In this document: positions 1 through 40,314 of the stretch, piece by piece | Position numbering within the stretch: the stretch's first letter is position 1 | Layout: every line of letters begins with the position of its first letter | Virus record (IMG/VR): IMGVR_UViG_2541047163_000016 | Reading direction: 5' to 3' (one strand) | Source of the DNA: a virus | Lineage: Duplodnaviria > Heunggongvirae > Uroviricota > Caudoviricetes | DNA: 40,314 bases | The notes under the pieces: generated by a model | Told to the model about the DNA's origin: nothing | Database searches by the model: none | The model's input: the letters and a program-made list of their open reading frames with translations, nothing else | Program-made: the position numbers and the translations under genes

Positions 1-520
1 CCGATATCAGCGGTAACGTGAATGCGAACTCCGGGACGCTCAACAACGTCACGATTAACGAGAACTGTCGGGTTCTGGGAAAACTGTCCGCGAACCAGAT
101 TGAAGGCGATCTCGTTAAAACAGTGGGCAAAGCTTTCCCCCGGGACTCCCGTGCACCGGAGCGGTGGCCATCAGGGACCATTACCGTCAGGGTTTATGAC
201 GATCAGCCGTTTGACCGGCAGATTGTTATTCCGGCGGTGGCATTCAGCGGCGCTAAACATGAGAGAGAGAGCATACTGATATTTACTCCTCATGCCGTCT
301 GATAGTGCGGAAAAACGGTGCTGAAATTTATAACCGTACCGCGCTGGATAATACGCTGATTTACAGTGGCGTTATTGATATGCCTGCCGGTCACGGTCAC
401 ATGACGCTGGAGTTTTCGGTGTCAGCATGGCTGGTGAATAACTGGTATCCCACAGCAAGTATCAGCGATTTGCTGGTTGTGGTGATGAAGAAAGCCACCG
501 CAGGCATCAGTATCAGCTGA
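1..520 (+). pseudogene. 3' end of a lambdoid tail-tip/host-specificity (J-like) gene, split across two reading frames
   Basis: ORF 18-302 (frame 0) and ORF 305-520 (frame 2) read as one protein C-terminus; frame-2 translation upstream of 305 ([15 protein letters not shown]...) continues it. The frames meet at (GA)5 at 261-270; removing one GA unit gives one continuous frame. 5' end is outside the window. J-like identity is from recollection of the lambda J C-terminus plus the lom-like gene on the other flank. Confidence 0.5.
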
Positions 521-550
521 ATTTTATAACCCATATACGGGCGCCAGAAA

Positions 551-640
551 TGTATAGCGCGGCGATTTTTTTGATACCGATTTGCATTTCATTTGATACC
601 GCTGAAAAACGCCGATACGCAACTTATTTGATACTAAATC
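551..640. repeat. Right-end (mom-proximal) cluster of putative transposase-binding repeats
   Basis: TTTGATACC at 570-578 and 592-600, TTTGATACT at 627-635, within ~85 bp of the terminus, like clustered R1-R3 sites of Mu attR. Confidence 0.55.
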
Positions 641-17393: not shown

Positions 17394-17954
17394 TTACAGT
17401 TCCTCCGGCGGTTCGACCGCCGTTGTCGTGTTCCCCGGCAAATCAATATGTGCCTCAAACGGCGGCGTACCGGGCGGCTCCACAAAGGTTTCGTAATGAC
17501 GCAGGAAGTCGTCCAGCGAGCTGGTATCGGTCAGCGGTGCGATCATTTCCTCGCAGGAGAAATAAAGCGCATACATCACCGCACCACTGTCCGCCTGGGT
17601 TTCGGTGTAACCGTTGACCGCCTTTTCAAAGTAAAGCGGTGAGGTTTTTTCTGTTCTGAAGCCGTTAAGCACGGCAATCAGCCGGGCCACAATCTGATAC
17701 AGTCCGGGACGGCTGGCCTCACGCCCGTTGAGCATGTCGCCGATGACGTAGAACACCCAGTGACTGACCAGGCGACCACGGGTACGGCCTTCACCGGCAC
17801 CCAGCCAGGCAACGTAGATCGCCGGGGCGTTAATCAGCATGGTGCGCAGTACGCTGTCGCTCCAGTCGCCGGGATGCGTGTCAACAGACACCAGTTCATT
17901 CCCGAAATACTCACGGATACGGGCGATGTATGCCTGTTCGGTTTCCGTAATCAT
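17394..17954 (-). CDS. Head-tail region protein (Mu gp37-like)
   Basis: 186-aa ORF in conserved position between head and tail genes. Confidence 0.55.
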   Translation of the reverse strand: MITETEQAYIARIREYFGNELVSVDTHPGDWSDSVLRTMLINAPAIYVAWLGAGEGRTRGRLVSHWVFYVIGDMLNGREASRPGLYQIVARLIAVLNGFRTEKTSPLYFEKAVNGYTETQADSGAVMYALYFSCEEMIAPLTDTSSLDDFLRHYETFVEPPGTPPFEAHIDLPGNTTTAVEPPEEL

Positions 17955-18370
17955 ATGAAGCCCTTCTGGTTGCGCCCGAATACCGCTGCATCAGACTGAA
18001 CCTGTGGTAAATCCCCGGATTCAGGGGCCGCACCGTTCGTATCCACACCGACCGGCACATTGCCGTTCATGACATCTTTCAGCCAGGCCAGCGCTTCACG
18101 GTAACGGTCACGCGCCTGATCGGAGGCTCGCTGATCGCACAGGTAATAAAAGGCAATCGCGCAACAGTGCTGAACAAGAACGGCCGGAATAACCTCCAGC
18201 GGCAACGTGTAACGGGCGGACAGATAGCTGTCGATAAGGGCTGACGCATCTGTCAGCGCCCGGTTCAGCTTGCGCGTGTCCGGCTCATCCGAACGGGGCA
18301 CAGCCAGTAACGGCCTGAGCAAATCCTCGCGGTAACGCGCCCGCATATCGGTTTCAGTGGCGTAATTCAT
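17951..18370 (-). CDS. Head-tail connector-region protein (Mu gp36-like)
   Basis: 139-aa ORF; start codon verified at 18370. Confidence 0.55.
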   Translation of the reverse strand: MNYATETDMRARYREDLLRPLLAVPRSDEPDTRKLNRALTDASALIDSYLSARYTLPLEVIPAVLVQHCCAIAFYYLCDQRASDQARDRYREALAWLKDVMNGNVPVGVDTNGAAPESGDLPQVQSDAAVFGRNQKGFI

Positions 18371-18783
18371 GCACGGGCCTGTTCCGCTTTGTTACCGGTC
18401 TTTTTCCGGGGAGCATCCTGTCCGGCTTCGGCTTCGGCTTCGGCTTCGGCTTCGGCTTCGGCTTCGGCTTCGGCTTCGGCTTCGGCTTCGGCTTCGGCTT
18501 CGGCTAAATCTGTACCGGCCACTGCATGAACCACACCCGCCACGCTCCCCGCATCATCAGCAGACGTCTGTAGTATTCGCACAGTGAGGCATGGCTCCTC
18601 CTCCAGTCGGGCAAGCTGCTCCGGGGTGACCTCAACCTGCTGACGTCCACGCGTGAACAGGAACCCCGCACGACGAAACGCCGAACGACTGCAACGCACT
18701 TCTGCCAGCACCGTGACAGAATTGTCACCACTGACCTGAAGACCTGAATCATCTGTTGCTGCCACAGTGTGATGTTCATTCAT
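18367..18783 (-). CDS. Head-region protein with internal (Ala-Glu)14 repeat
   Basis: 138-aa ORF just downstream of the major head gene; residues ~95-122 are AEAEAE... encoded by the hexanucleotide array. Confidence 0.6.
   Translation of the reverse strand: MNEHHTVAATDDSGLQVSGDNSVTVLAEVRCSRSAFRRAGFLFTRGRQQVEVTPEQLARLEEEPCLTVRILQTSADDAGSVAGVVHAVAGTDLAEAEAEAEAEAEAEAEAEAEAEAEAEAGQDAPRKKTGNKAEQARA
18423..18505. repeat. Hexanucleotide tandem repeat (CGGCTT)13-14
   Basis: 13 perfect CGGCTT units plus one imperfect unit; in-frame (GAA-GCC = Glu-Ala) within gene 18367-18783. Confidence 0.9.
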
Positions 18784-18826
18784 ATTTGCCCTCCGCAGGG
18801 GCCGGGCCGTAAGCCCGGCTCACCGT

Positions 18827-19774
18827 TTACAGATAATCCGCGACAACCAGCTCCAGCTTACCCTTCATCTCGTTAGAGACGGTTGCGTTTCCGTCTGCGA
18901 ACAGTTCACGCTCCAGCAGCTGCACCGCCTGTTTTTCCAGCGAGGTGGGGACAACAATATGGGTGGGTTTAATGCCGAGTTTGCGGCCACCGTCAGCGGT
19001 AAATTCGCGCATGGCTGACCAGCCGTGCCACAGTGCATCCAGCGTCAGCGGTGACTGCATCATGTAGGCCATCTGCCAGAAGCCGTAGCCCACATTGCGA
19101 CGGGCGGATGCACCAAACACAAATTCGTTATCGGTGAATGCGCGACCTTCATCGACTTTGGTCTGGGCAACCAGTTCAGCCTTACGGCGATCCTGATAAA
19201 TCAGCGGTTTTACCGCGCGGGAGCAGTCAAGCAGATACCAGGCCGGACCGCTGTAATCAGCCTGTGCGCCGACAGAGCCGGTTTTTGCCACAAACATATT
19301 GCTGACCATCTGCGCATCCCCGGAGCCATCCACTTTGGGGTAAACCGGATGTTCGGTATCAAAGAAGTTCTGACCGTCATAGCAGGCCGCACTGATCCCG
19401 TCACGCAGGGCAGCAAAGACCAGCTCATCCGGTTGTACCGCCGCAGCGCGCCCCATCTCCTGGAACAACGGGGAATAAATACCGAGGTTGTCGTCTTCGA
19501 AGTCATCGCGGCTAATGGCGACAGTGCCTTCAAAAGTTTTGTTCACGATGGCATAGCCATAGGCTTTCATCTTCTCGATGACGCGGGAGCCGATCCACTC
19601 ACGGAACTGCGGGAACTGCCCCAGCCAGCCGTAGGTGTTGGATTTCGATGTGGAGGGCACGGTCATCGCAATTTTTTTATACTGCGACGGGGCCATGGAC
19701 ATCCCGGCCTGAAAATCAGAACGGTAGCCCGTCATCAGGGCTGTGATCATCGCCGGTGTAATCGGGGTAGGCAT
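18827..19774 (-). CDS. Major head (capsid) protein, Mu T-like
   Basis: 315-aa ORF following the I-like gene with TAATG stop/start overlap. Confidence 0.8.
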   Translation of the reverse strand: MPTPITPAMITALMTGYRSDFQAGMSMAPSQYKKIAMTVPSTSKSNTYGWLGQFPQFREWIGSRVIEKMKAYGYAIVNKTFEGTVAISRDDFEDDNLGIYSPLFQEMGRAAAVQPDELVFAALRDGISAACYDGQNFFDTEHPVYPKVDGSGDAQMVSNMFVAKTGSVGAQADYSGPAWYLLDCSRAVKPLIYQDRRKAELVAQTKVDEGRAFTDNEFVFGASARRNVGYGFWQMAYMMQSPLTLDALWHGWSAMREFTADGGRKLGIKPTHIVVPTSLEKQAVQLLERELFADGNATVSNEMKGKLELVVADYL

Positions 19775-20898
19775 TATTGCATTTCCTCTTTCATTTTCAG
19801 GAACTCGGCTTCGGTTTTACCCAGCAGTTTGGCGGCCGCGATATCTTCAGCCGACAGCGCAGCGGTGGCAGTCTTTTTATCCGGCACGGTCACGGTGTCG
19901 GTCTGAAGAGAGGTCAGGGCCGCAACCGGCTGGCGGGCGTCAAGCTGTGCAGAAAGTGCCGCAACGCCAATCTGCCCGCCCAGTTGTTCCAGATAGCCGC
20001 GTTCGCTTTTGAAGATGCGCCCTTCGGATTCAGCCTTGTCCAGCACCTGCTCCAGCGTGGTGCTGCCGTGCTGCGCCGACAGCGCAACGTATTCGGTACG
20101 CAGGGCGTTATACGTTTCAACGGGCACGTATTTCGTCAGATCAATAATGCCGCCAGCCGGTGTGCCTTTTGCGGTTTCCAGCTCTGCCGACAGACTGGCG
20201 ACCTGTGTTTTCAGGTTGTCGTGTGCATCCGCACGGGTTTTGATCCCGGTGAGGGCAGACAGCGCCGCCGTGCCCAGCTCCGGCGTAAATTCGTCACCGT
20301 CAGCCACGGTCAGACCGAGCGCCGTCAGCAACTGGCGTAATTGCTCATTCATGGAGGTATCCTTTAAAGGAGGGTTTAAGGCGTTATAAAGGTCATCCGC
20401 CGACAGCGCGGCGACAGGATTCATGCCGGTCAGACCGGGGTCACCGGTAATAGCCAGCATCCGAAGTTCGACAGGTTCGCCGGTGTTCTCGTCATAGCCA
20501 ATCACCGGTGAAAACCAGGGGAATTCGTTATTACGCAGATGTTCAAGGGCCGGAGGGTTCCACTTCGGGCGCACCTCGAAGCCACGCTCTTCACTGAAGC
20601 GAAAATTCTCCGGTGAGGCCATCACAAAACCGGCAGCCGGTGCCTGATGCCCCTTAATCAGGGTCTGGTGGTTGTAGTCAATTTTCACCGGCTGATTGAG
20701 CGCCACAACCCGGGATACCATGCGCTCAACGGTCGCACGGTTAATCAGCCAGCCCTCGGCCGGTTTTTCCGGGCGACCGTCACGGGCCTTTACCCGACCG
20801 GCTGGCATGATCTGACACCAGTCACCGTCCCCGTCTGCGGACAGGCTGATGGCATTCAGAATGGCATAAGCAAGTTTGGGCGTGTTTTTCGTCTTCAT
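19774..20898 (-). CDS. Head protease/scaffold protein, Mu I-like
   Basis: 374-aa ORF; first gene after a 175-bp intergenic region, as for the Mu I operon. Confidence 0.75.
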   Translation of the reverse strand: MKTKNTPKLAYAILNAISLSADGDGDWCQIMPAGRVKARDGRPEKPAEGWLINRATVERMVSRVVALNQPVKIDYNHQTLIKGHQAPAAGFVMASPENFRFSEERGFEVRPKWNPPALEHLRNNEFPWFSPVIGYDENTGEPVELRMLAITGDPGLTGMNPVAALSADDLYNALNPPLKDTSMNEQLRQLLTALGLTVADGDEFTPELGTAALSALTGIKTRADAHDNLKTQVASLSAELETAKGTPAGGIIDLTKYVPVETYNALRTEYVALSAQHGSTTLEQVLDKAESEGRIFKSERGYLEQLGGQIGVAALSAQLDARQPVAALTSLQTDTVTVPDKKTATAALSAEDIAAAKLLGKTEAEFLKMKEEMQ

Positions 20899-39012: not shown

Positions 39013-39597
39013 ATGAACATGAAAAACAGTTCTTTTCTCGACGAAGGAAAAGAACCAGTGATCGAACGGATTTTTCGTCTTGCAGAGCGTTACAAATCGA
39101 GAAGTGAGGCGGCTAGAGCATGGGGAATAAACGTTCAGACATTGCAGAACTACTACAAAAGGAGAAACAATCAGCCGCCACCACAACCAAGAAAGCACCA
39201 TCTCCAGAACATTGCAGAAAGAGAACATGTATCTATGGAGTGGCTAGTCAATGGTTATGGTGATGAGCCAAGCATGAAAAAAGAACCAATTGAACAAACA
39301 AAAAGAACAAAAAAACAAAGAATTGATGATAGTGATTCCATCATCATGAGGGCGTGGGACTCGCTAACTTCATCTGAACAAGAGATTTTGTCCAACTTAT
39401 TGATCAGAAAAGGGGCCGAACTACTAACCGTTTTGCTTGATACAGATATTCAAAAACTGCACTCATTGAGCGGAGTCAAAAGAGCACTAGCATTGAGTCT
39501 ACAAGAGTTACCCGATGATACTGTAAGAGAGATTTATGAAGAATGTGAAGCTAAGGTTAATCATTTAAATGTAACCCAGAAAAAGGCTGGTGCGTAA
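39013..39597 (+). CDS. Repressor (Mu c functional analogue) with N-terminal helix-turn-helix
   Basis: ATG at 39013 with AAAGGA 9 nt upstream (track start 38884 is GTG inside the operator region); N-terminal ...RSEAARAWGINVQTLQNYYKRR looks like an HTH; divergent from ner, at the left end as Mu c is. Confidence 0.7.
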   Translation: MNMKNSSFLDEGKEPVIERIFRLAERYKSRSEAARAWGINVQTLQNYYKRRNNQPPPQPRKHHLQNIAEREHVSMEWLVNGYGDEPSMKKEPIEQTKRTKKQRIDDSDSIIMRAWDSLTSSEQEILSNLLIRKGAELLTVLLDTDIQKLHSLSGVKRALALSLQELPDDTVREIYEECEAKVNHLNVTQKKAGA

Positions 39598-39694
39598 GGG
39601 AGTGGTGCAATTTTTGTGCTGTAGTACACTCCTTTAAAGACAATCTGGAGAAAAACGTTTTAAGCCTTTTTAAAGCCATTTTAAGCGTCAATCC

Positions 39695-39869
39695 GTAGTA
39701 TCAAAAGTTTTGCCGATTTTAGAATAAACGATTAATTATTGCACAATCGGTATCAAATAGACTTTAAGCGCTCATCCAGACATCACCTGTTTTATTTCAG
39801 TATCTTACAGGTGATTTCACCTCCTTTCACTAAAACCCTCGTTGGTATCAAATGATTCACCTGGTTACA
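39695..39869. repeat. Left-end (repressor-proximal) cluster of putative transposase-binding repeats
   Basis: GGTATCAAA at 39844-39852 and 39749-39757, GTATCAAAA at 39698-39706 (reverse complement of the right-end TTTGATACC), spread over ~170 bp like L1-L3 of Mu attL. Confidence 0.5.
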
Positions 39870-39908
39870 AATGGCGCCTTTTTTATTGCAGAAAAGCGAG
39901 AGGTAATT

Positions 39909-40314
39909 ATGCGTAAACTTTATGCCGCCATTTTGTCCGCAGCCATCTGTCTGGCCGTATCCGGCGCGCCTGCATGGGCGTCTGAGCAGCAGGCCACGCT
40001 GAGCGCGGGGTATCTTCATGCCCGGACGAGCGCTCCCGGTAGCGATAATCTTAACGGGATTAACGTGAAATACCGTTATGAATTTACGGACACGCTGGGG
40101 CTGGTGACGTCATTCAGCTATGCAGGAGACAAGAATCGCCAGCTTACCCGTTACAGCGATACCCGCTGGCATGAAGATTCCGTCGTAACCGCTGGTTCAG
40201 CGTAATGGCGGGGCCGTCTGTGCGCGTGAATGAATGGTTCAGCGCGTATGCGATGGCGGGTGTGGCTTACAGCCGTGTGTCGACTTTCTCCGGGGATTAT
40301 CTCCGCGTAACTGA
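39909..40314 (+). pseudogene. lom: lom-like outer membrane protein gene (Ail/Lom/PagC family), frame change near 40175-40182, 3' end outside window
   Basis: Signal peptide MRKLYAAILSAAICLAVSGAPAWA and ...GINVKYRYEFTD... in frame 0 to the stop at 40203; the protein continues in frame 2 (RFRRNRWFSVMAGPSVRVNEWFSAYAMAGVAYSR...), paralleling the recalled lambda Lom sequence. Confidence 0.6.

What the first reader, a model, noticed from the sequence alone, without database searches (positions are those of the whole stretch)
18423..18505. 13-14 unit hexanucleotide microsatellite encoding an (Ala-Glu)14 linker inside a head-region gene
A perfect CGGCTT array of this length is unusual in phage structural regions and is a hotspot for slipped-strand length variation. 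Because the unit is 6 bp, expansion or contraction keeps the frame and only changes the acidic spacer between the N-terminal domain and the basic C-terminal tail (...GQDAPRKKTGNKAEQARA). This could tune a head-decoration, scaffolding or DNA-interaction function, or just be a tolerated repeat.
Basis: seen in the sequence. Interest (0 to 1): 0.6.

Follow-up and report, generated by a model that had tools for sequence, protein, structure and literature searches.

The report
Known typing repeat in Mu-like prophage
The repeat is real and highly variable between E. coli strains, but it is the established strain-typing marker EHC-5, lying in a floppy, loosely constrained tail of a small Mu-like prophage protein, so it is ordinary rather than new.

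Summary
Window 18423-18505 is a perfect 13.8-copy CGGCTT array and the only strong tandem repeat in the 40 kb. On the minus strand it encodes (Ala-Glu)13-Ala, not (AE)14, in a 138-aa gene (18367-18783) between the Mu-type major head gene gpT and the adaptor gene gp36. The protein is an HI1506/Mu gp35 homologue (Pfam FluMu_N; PDB 2OUT).

The element is an Sp18-type Mu-like prophage of Shiga-toxigenic E. coli. The two published primers of MLVA locus EHC-5 match exactly on either side of the array, so it is a known VNTR typing marker. In 228 of 5426 complete E. coli genomes the locus varies. I extracted alleles of 1 to 20 units, and those of 4 to 20 units have essentially identical flanks. Isolates 113-141, apparently one lysogen, carry 13, 14 or 15 units.

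The repeat sits in a predicted disordered region (pLDDT below 50). This lineage lacks the C-terminal helical domain of Mu gp35. The gene evolves under relaxed constraint (dN/dS about 0.7, against 0.03-0.06 for its neighbours).

Best reading: a slippage-driven, frame-neutral, tolerated acidic spacer. Nothing supports functional tuning, head decoration or scaffolding. Novelty: already known. Interest is low.

The parts
18423..18505 (-). Perfect hexanucleotide VNTR, (CGGCTT)13.8 on the + strand, equal to [GCC GAA]13 GCC on the coding strand. Encodes (Ala-Glu)13-Ala, residues 94-120.
   Evidence: TRF; sequence; translation and unit count.
18367..18783 (-). Gene for a 138-aa HI1506-related / Mu gp35-family protein (orthologue of ECs_4975 of prophage Sp18).
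   Evidence: ORF; Pfam FluMu_N PF17891, 35 bits against cut-off 25.8; PDB 2OUT E 1.6e-4; PHROG 3622 E 1e-79; RefSeq annotation 'HI1506-related protein'.
18553..18717 (-). Folded N-terminal FluMu_N domain (residues about 23-77: beta-hairpin, helix, strand).
   Evidence: AlphaFold2 pLDDT 86-95 over these residues. The only meaningful fold match is 2OUT/HI1506, probability 1.0.
18505..18552 (-). Non-repetitive linker (residues 78-93, DDAGSVAGVVHAVAGTDL). Predicted disordered.
   Evidence: pLDDT below 50 from residue 79; aligns to the linker of Mu gp35 and HI1506.
18370..18423 (-). Basic C-terminal tail GQDAPRKKTGNKAEQARA (residues 121-138). Stands where Mu gp35 has a 3-helix C-domain.
   Evidence: Translation; alignment with Mu gp35 and Edwardsiella P0083; tail (A120-A138) charge +2.8, pI 10.3.
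18384..18406 (+). Exact binding site of the EHC-5 MLVA reverse primer CCGCTTTGTTACCGGTCTTTTTC.
   Evidence: Primer from S5 Table of PMC10062581; single exact match, 0 expected by chance.
18554..18576 (-). Exact binding site of the EHC-5 MLVA forward primer ATACTACAGACGTCTGCTGATGA. With the other primer it gives a 193-bp amplicon across the array.
   Evidence: Primer from S5 Table of PMC10062581; single exact match.
18827..19774 (-). Upstream neighbour: Mu-like major head subunit gpT.
   Evidence: Pfam Mu-like_gpT E 7e-119.
17951..18370 (-). Downstream neighbour: Mu gp36-type head-tail adaptor. Its start overlaps the stop of the repeat gene (ATGA).
   Evidence: Pfam Phage_Mu_Gp36 E 3.5e-35; sequence.

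Best explanation
The array is a coding VNTR in the gp35-family (HI1506-related) gene of an Sp18-type Mu-like prophage of Shiga-toxigenic E. coli. It is the locus already used as MLVA typing marker EHC-5. Shown: units of 6 bp are gained and lost, so every allele stays in frame and only the number of Ala-Glu dipeptides changes (1 to at least 20). Inferred: the changes arise by slipped-strand mispairing during replication. Shown or predicted: the repeat lies in the disordered part of the protein, after a small folded N-terminal domain and before a short basic tail. In this lineage that part has replaced the linker plus 3-helix C-domain of Mu gp35 and HI1506. Inferred: because this segment is an unstructured spacer in a gene under weak selective constraint, length changes are tolerated and close to neutral. 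On this view the repeat has no tuned function beyond being a flexible acidic spacer. The protein itself is an accessory protein encoded at the head-neck boundary. In Mu it is called 'probably structural, possibly connector-related' and its role is unresolved. It is neither a capsid decoration protein nor the scaffold.
For: 1. Reality of the array: a perfect 13.8-copy repeat.

2. Identity with EHC-5: both published primers match exactly at 18384-18406 and 18554-18576 and bracket the array. In the published MLVA data EHC-5 is null in 31-100% of strains per O157 clade and otherwise takes values from 2 to 14. That fits a variably present prophage, and 228 of 5426 complete genomes carry the locus.

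3. Hypervariability: the span of a fixed 551-nt query runs from 485 to 593 nt, always in multiples of 3. The 22 alleles I extracted have 1, 2, 4-15, 18 and 20 perfect units. Fourteen alleles (4-20 units) have 0-1 mismatches in 673 nt of flank.

4. Recent change: cattle isolates 113-141 carry the prophage at the same chromosomal position, and their locus spans correspond to 13, 14 or 15 units. I confirmed this by sequence for strains 121, 113 and 118.

5. Disorder: AlphaFold2 gives pLDDT above 90 for residues 23-77 and below 50, with no secondary structure, for 79-138. In the solved homologue the N-domain alignment ends at the residue before the repeat.

6. Weak constraint: between the window and strain FORC_043, dN/dS is 0.71 for residues 1-93, against 0.06 for gp36 and 0.03 for gpT (Fisher p = 4e-4).

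7. No special DNA structure: the array folds less well than shuffled controls (z = +3.6).

8. Short ancestral forms exist and are common: LAEAGQD with one unit (P0055, 150 member sequences) and three units (P0039, 149 member sequences).
Against: No experiment here measures phage fitness as a function of repeat number. A 6-bp unit preserves the frame automatically, so in-frame alleles say nothing about selection either way. Net charge changes from about -3 to about -22 across alleles, which is a large change for something with no effect. The array is pure, with no interruptions over 13 units; that fits recent expansion but does not exclude selection for length. The dN/dS contrast rests on one genome pair and 23 substitutions. 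The disorder prediction comes from a shallow 11-sequence alignment. I could not read Izumiya et al. 2010 itself, so identity with EHC-5 rests on the primer sequences reprinted in PMC10062581.
Confidence: 0.8

Rival explanations
1. Adaptive tuning. The number of Ala-Glu units sets the reach or charge of an acidic spacer between the N-domain and the basic tail, and so adjusts a neck, packaging or DNA-binding activity. Slippage supplies heritable variants on which selection acts.
For: Net charge varies widely, from -3 to -22. An acidic tract lies next to a basic tail. Other family members also carry acidic or A/E/K-rich segments after the N-domain (P0085, P0093). The ORF is intact in all 22 alleles.
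Against: There is no favoured length: alleles from 1 to 20 units occur, nearly continuously. Apparently clonal isolates differ by single steps. The gene is under weak constraint compared with its neighbours. One-unit forms are common. Frame preservation follows automatically from a 6-bp unit. Mu gp35 was not resolved in the virion structure.
Confidence: 0.08
2. Decaying or dispensable gene. After loss of the gp35 C-domain the gene is no longer needed, and the repeat is simply expanding in a gene on its way to becoming a pseudogene.
For: The 3-helix C-domain present in Mu gp35, the Edwardsiella homologue P0083 and most other homologues (P0086, P0088, P0090 and others) is absent here. dN/dS is 0.5-0.7. 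From my own knowledge of Mu genetics, no amber complementation group maps between genes T and J. Occasional frameshifted variants exist (P0071, P0082).
Against: The ORF is intact with conserved start, Shine-Dalgarno sequence and ATGA coupling to gp36 in all 22 alleles examined. The core motifs FRRAG and TPEQLARLExEPCL are conserved from E. coli to Edwardsiella and Mu. The gene keeps its position across distant Mu-like phages. dN/dS is still below 1.
Confidence: 0.12
3. Capsid decoration or scaffolding protein whose spacer length sets the geometry on or inside the head.
For: The gene lies directly downstream of the major capsid gene.
Against: The Mu capsid structure shows no cement or decoration proteins, and gp35 was not resolved anywhere (PMC11915804). 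Scaffolding in Mu is done by gpZ, nested in gene I (annotation), whose homologue is present at 19774-20898. No fold similarity to decoration proteins was found.
Confidence: 0.03

Closest known systems
MLVA locus EHC-5 of the Izumiya et al. 2010 EHEC O157/O26/O111 typing scheme (Microbiol Immunol 54:569; primers reprinted in PMC10062581, S5 Table)
   Same: It is the same locus. Both primers match the window exactly and flank the array. The locus is polymorphic in copy number and often null, as expected for a repeat carried on a variably present prophage.
   Different: Nothing differs at the DNA level. The typing papers I could read treat it as an anonymous marker and give no protein-level reading. 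I could not read the original paper to see which gene and unit size it states.
HI1506 / FluMu gp35 (PDB 2OUT) and phage Mu gp35 (Mu_35)
   Same: Homologous N-terminal FluMu_N domain. Same gene position between gpT and gp36. A non-globular segment follows the N-domain; the GenBank note and PDB title describe a two-domain protein, and from my memory of Sari et al. 2007 the linker is about 30 unstructured residues.
   Different: The window protein lacks the C-terminal 3-helix domain. In its place it has the (AE)n VNTR and an 18-21 residue basic tail. Mu and HI1506 have no tandem repeat.
Other in-frame hexanucleotide VNTRs used for typing enterobacteria, such as the O157-series loci of PulseNet MLVA; from memory, STTR6 in the Gifsy-1 prophage and STTR5 in yohM of Salmonella Typhimurium
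   Same: A 6-bp unit, single-step changes between apparently clonal isolates (the O157-series loci appear in the same published tables), and in some cases a prophage location.
   Different: Different genes and repeat sequences. These resemblances are recalled, not tested here.
Phase-variable contingency loci (simple-sequence repeats that switch genes on and off)
   Same: Slippage-prone repeat inside a gene.
   Different: The unit length is a multiple of 3, so there is no frameshift and no on/off switching. All 22 alleles are in frame.
Lambda gpFI (a small DNA-packaging chaperone encoded just after the major capsid gene, with a flexible linker; from memory)
   Same: Similar size, similar position after the major capsid gene, and partly disordered.
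   Different: No sequence or fold similarity was detected. This is a positional analogy only and no membership is claimed.

Membership tests
MLVA/VNTR locus EHC-5 | Both published PCR primers anneal on either side of the repeat | tested here: met
   Exact single matches at 18384-18406 (+) and 18554-18576 (-), giving a 193-bp amplicon that contains 18423-18505.
MLVA/VNTR locus EHC-5 | Copy number differs among strains while the flanks stay conserved | tested here: met
   1-20 units in 22 extracted alleles. Flanks show 0-1 mismatch in 673 nt for the alleles with 4-20 units. Spans run 485-593 nt in the listed genomes.
MLVA/VNTR locus EHC-5 | Locus absent (null allele) from many EHEC strains | tested here: met
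   Present in 228 of 5426 complete E. coli genomes. The published null frequency is 31-100% per O157 clade.
MLVA/VNTR locus EHC-5 | Repeat unit size and gene location as stated in the original description (Izumiya 2010) | not testable with these tools
   The paper is not held in the library.
FluMu gp35 / HI1506 family (Pfam PF17891 FluMu_N) | N-terminal FluMu_N domain above the Pfam gathering score | tested here: met
   35 bits against a cut-off of 25.8, E 1.2e-8; PDB 2OUT E 1.6e-4; Foldseek probability 1.0 to 2OUT.
FluMu gp35 / HI1506 family (Pfam PF17891 FluMu_N) | Gene lies between the Mu-type major head gene and gp36 | tested here: met
   Window gene order; the same order in Mu, Sp18 and an Edwardsiella prophage.
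FluMu gp35 / HI1506 family (Pfam PF17891 FluMu_N) | C-terminal 3-helix domain (LNxRIRxAV...NPxHFT...GxPxVxAV...LG) as in HI1506 and Mu gp35 | tested here: not met
   Absent. The protein ends 18 residues after the repeat, whereas most homologues have the domain. It is therefore a truncated or variant member.
Phage head decoration / cement protein | Bound on the capsid surface in a fixed ratio to the major capsid protein, with a known decoration fold | tested here: not met
   No fold match to decoration proteins. The Mu capsid has no cement proteins and gp35 was not resolved (PMC11915804). This was not tested on Sp18 virions themselves.
Phage scaffolding protein | Is the element's internal scaffold | tested here: not met
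   A Mu gpI/Z protease-scaffold homologue is present at 19774-20898. The repeat gene has no similarity to it.
Phase-variable contingency locus | Repeat changes shift the reading frame or promoter spacing and so switch expression | tested here: not met
   The unit is 6 bp and lies inside the ORF. All 22 alleles are in frame.

The most novel reading that the evidence does not exclude
The (AE)n tract could be a functional, slippage-adjustable module. For example, it could be an acidic intramolecular mask or DNA mimic for the adjacent basic tail, or a spacer of adjustable reach at the head-neck junction. Mu-like prophage populations would then carry standing variation in packaging or head-completion efficiency, a protein-length 'rheostat' in a phage morphogenesis gene. 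My evidence does not exclude this, because no phenotype was measured and the net charge change across alleles is large.
Probability: 0.06. Interest if true: 0.45.

Novelty: already known. Interest (0 to 1): 0.14.

Why it matters
The practical value is modest. The work places an anonymous surveillance marker (EHC-5) in a specific gene of a mobile, randomly inserting Mu-like prophage. That explains its frequent null alleles, and it means a strain could give more than one allele, since up to four copies of the locus occur per genome. It also implies that EHC-5 differences can reflect gain or loss of the prophage as well as slippage, which matters when MLVA distances are interpreted. Biologically, it shows that the C-terminal region of the gp35 family tolerates very large changes in length and charge. 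That fits an accessory role for a protein that remains one of the few unassigned late proteins of phage Mu.

Tried and rejected
- Literature searches for 'HI1506', 'ECs4975' and 'Sp18'+VNTR+O157 found nothing. The HI1506 structure paper and Iwasaki 2018 are not held. 'FluMu protein gp35' returned only two genome-annotation papers.
- The EHC-6 forward primer is not in the window, so only EHC-5 maps here.
- Foldseek of the model against the PDB gave only 2OUT. The other hits (GINS, PsaD and so on) have E above 0.4 and were rejected. Against BFVD nothing had E below 0.01, so no function could be transferred.
- An exhaustive phmmer search with residues 1-93 found only 14 relatives. It helped with domain architecture but not with function.
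- Hairpin-driven instability was rejected: the repeat strand folds worse than shuffled controls.
- A terminator between gpT and the repeat gene was considered. The consensus scan found none there. An 8-bp G+C-rich stem-loop is present, but it lacks a T-run and has only z = -2.15.
- Decoration, scaffold and contingency-locus readings were rejected; see the membership tests.
- The megablast spans that differ from the 551-nt window span by 3 nt rather than 6 (518, 554, 542 and others) come from a separate 9-nt indel in the basic tail (KAEQARA against KAKQAKKARA), not from half-units.

Full report
**1. The observation**

Tandem Repeats Finder reports one outstanding array in the 40,314-nt window. 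It spans 18423-18505, has period 6 and 13.8 copies, is 100% perfect, and scores 166 with consensus CGGCTT. No other array scores above 56. The raw sequence shows it directly.

The array lies in a minus-strand ORF, 18367-18783, of 138 aa. The ORF has a GGAGG Shine-Dalgarno sequence 8 nt before the ATG, and its stop overlaps the next gene's start as ATGA. On the coding strand the array is [GCC GAA]x13 + GCC. This encodes residues 94-120 = (Ala-Glu)13-Ala, followed by GQDAPRKKTGNKAEQARA. The only correction is (AE)13-A rather than (AE)14.

**2. The gene and the element**

The flanking genes form a Mu-type late module on the minus strand:
- gpI protease/scaffold, 19774-20898
- gpT major head, 18827-19774, E 7e-119
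- the repeat gene
- gp36, 17951-18370
- gp37, 17394-17954
- DUF2635, 17148-17393
- tail sheath, 15649-17151

The repeat protein matches several references:
- Pfam FluMu_N (PF17891), 35 bits against a cut-off of 25.8
- PDB 2OUT, HI1506 / FluMu gp35, E 1.6e-4 over residues 25-93
- PHROG 3622, function unknown

Megablast identifies the region as the Sp18-type Mu-like prophage of E. coli O157:H7 Sakai, where the gene is ECs_4975. RefSeq calls it 'HI1506-related protein'. In phage Mu the equivalent gene, Mu_35, sits in the same place. The same gene order is kept in an Edwardsiella prophage, and gene sizes suggest a similar order on a distant 3.2-kb contig.

**3. It is a known typing marker**

The S5 Table of Hirai et al. 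2023 (PMC10062581) reprints the primers of the Japanese EHEC MLVA scheme of Izumiya et al. 2010. The EHC-5 primers are ATACTACAGACGTCTGCTGATGA and CCGCTTTGTTACCGGTCTTTTTC. Each matches the window exactly once, at 18554-18576 (-) and 18384-18406 (+), with 0 matches expected by chance. They bracket the array in a 193-bp amplicon.

In that paper's data EHC-5 is null in 76%, 31%, 100%, 97% and 60% of clade 2, 3, 7, 8 and 12 strains. Where present it takes the values 2, 3, 5, 6, 7, 10, 11, 12, 13 and 14. This is what a repeat on a variably present prophage should give. The finding is therefore the published VNTR locus EHC-5.

**4. Variation among related prophages**

A 551-nt query (18300-18850) hits 228 of 5426 complete E. 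coli genomes, with up to 4 places per genome. In the roughly 105 records listed, the matched span runs from 485 to 593 nt and always changes by multiples of 3.

I fetched 22 alleles and counted units:
- Perfect GCCGAA units: 1, 2, 4, 5, 6, 7, 8, 9, 10, 11, 12, 13, 14, 15, 18 and 20.
- Protein lengths: 117-152 aa, all in frame.
- In the fourteen alleles with 4-20 units, the 673 nt of flank show 0-1 mismatches to the window.
- In those same alleles the neighbouring proteins are the same RefSeq entries throughout (WP_001104956, WP_001142982).

Cattle isolates 113-141 have nearly identical genome sizes and carry the prophage at the same coordinate. Their locus spans correspond to 13 units in nine strains, 14 in seven and 15 in one. 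I confirmed this by sequence for strains 121, 113 and 118. The array thus mutates far faster than the surrounding sequence and changes in single steps. This is the expected signature of replication slippage, although slippage itself is inferred. The repeat strand has no hairpin potential (z = +3.6 against shuffles).

Some lineages carry interrupted arrays (AEVEAEVE...). The shortest forms read LAEAGQD. Mu gp35 also has LAEAGG in its linker, which suggests the array grew from a pre-existing AEA seed.

**5. The protein context**

AlphaFold2, run on an 11-sequence alignment, gives pLDDT 86-95 for residues about 23-77 (beta-hairpin, helix, strand). For residues 79-138, which are the linker, the repeat and the tail, it gives pLDDT below 50 and no secondary structure. 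Foldseek against the PDB returns only 2OUT with high probability. BFVD gives nothing below E = 0.01.

An exhaustive phmmer search with residues 1-93 found only 14 relatives. Most of them, like Mu gp35 and the Edwardsiella homologue, have three parts: the N-domain, a 20-40 residue acidic or Pro/Ala/Ser-rich linker, and a conserved C-terminal domain of about 50 residues. The Sp18 lineage lacks that C-domain. In its place it has (AE)n and an 18-21 residue basic tail. Two distant members also end in A/E/K-rich low-complexity tails (P0085, P0093), and two have tandem N-domains (P0091, P0095).

Net charge goes from about -3 (1 unit) to about -22 (20 units).

**6. Constraint on the gene**

I compared the window with strain FORC_043 (L022). 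Residues 1-93 of the repeat gene differ at 23 nucleotides and 13 amino acids, giving dN/dS = 0.71. In the same pair, 113 codons of gp36 give 0.06 and 140 codons of gpT give 0.03. Fisher's exact test on replacement against silent changes gives p = 4e-4.

The core motifs FRRAG and TPEQLARLExEPCL are nevertheless conserved as far as Mu. The gene is therefore weakly constrained rather than dead.

**7. What is known about gp35**

The GenBank record of Mu labels Mu_35 'head-to-tail connector complex protein', citing Iwasaki et al. 2018 and the HI1506 structure. The 2025 cryo-EM study of whole Mu lists gp35 among three 'probably structural' proteins. [quoted passage not shown] They also report that the Mu capsid has no cement proteins (PMC11915804).

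A decoration role therefore has no support. The scaffold role belongs to gpZ, which is nested in gene I.

**8. Conclusion**

The best-supported account is a slippage-driven, frame-neutral VNTR in an intrinsically disordered, weakly constrained C-terminal region of an accessory protein encoded at the head-neck boundary. The protein tolerates 1 to at least 20 Ala-Glu dipeptides.

The suggestions of functional tuning, decoration and scaffolding have no support.

The locus is already known (EHC-5) and the protein family is already described. The one new point here is the placement of the marker in this gene, together with the loss of the C-domain. What remains untested is whether repeat length has any phenotype; the experiments that would settle it are listed under next steps.

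Noticed in passing
window 1-552 and 39869-40314: The Mu-like prophage sits inside another prophage. The left flank matches lambdoid tail-tip gene J and the right flank matches an Ail/Lom family gene. Identity to the cattle-strain copies of the Mu-like phage starts at about 549. Two GenBank Stx-converting phages (LC727881, LC727895) are also annotated with an 'inserted Bacteriophage Mu-like phage'.
   Followed up: partly
window 18370-18390 (C-terminal tail of the repeat gene); L015-L022: The basic tail comes in two forms...GNKAEQARA (window, Sakai) and ...GNKAKQAKKARA (+3 aa, more basic). This 9-nt indel explains the megablast spans that differ from the 551-nt window span by 3 rather than 6 nt.
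   Followed up: partly
window 18790-18826, minus strand (gap between gpT stop and the repeat-gene start): A G+C-rich 8-bp stem-loop (GCCGGGCU UAC GGCCCGGC) lies right after the major head gene: -23.6 kcal/mol for the 61-nt stretch 18775-18835, z = -2.15, no T-run. Mu has a predicted terminator at the equivalent place. It may lower expression of the downstream genes relative to gpT.
   Followed up: partly
protein P0071 (E. coli, 119 aa): One database variant reads ...VAVWWFMQPAGTKPKPKPDEGYSRKKTGNK.... The repeat is translated in the AAG CCG (Lys-Pro) frame, between an upstream frameshift and a downstream one that restores the frame. This is either a sequencing error or a real compensated frameshift. 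P0082 shows an N-terminal frameshift.
   Followed up: no
L017 (NCCP 13963) and P0002: Some lineages carry interrupted arrays, AEVEAEVE(AE)n, which give a 12-nt super-period at the 5' end of the repeat.
   Followed up: no
window 18505-18783 compared with 17951-18370 and 18827-19250 (against L022): Synonymous divergence of the repeat gene (dS 0.11) is less than half that of its two neighbours (0.25-0.33) in the same genome pair. This may be a sign of mosaic recombination across this small gene.
   Followed up: no
E. coli genome hits: Up to 4 copies of the locus occur per genome, and chromosomal positions differ widely between strains, which would fit Mu-type random insertion. A strain with several copies could give multiple EHC-5 bands or alleles in MLVA.
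   Followed up: no
window 39278-39319 and 39658-39686: A-rich imperfect tandem repeats (AAAAAGAACCAAAAAAACAAAC x2; TTTTAAGCCA x2.8) lie near the repressor-side end of the prophage. They could be transposase or repressor binding repeats of the Mu-type left end.
   Followed up: no
proteins P0091 and P0095: Distant family members carry two FluMu_N domains in tandem, each with a GP.KGRRRAGFQF motif, and have no C-domain.
   Followed up: no
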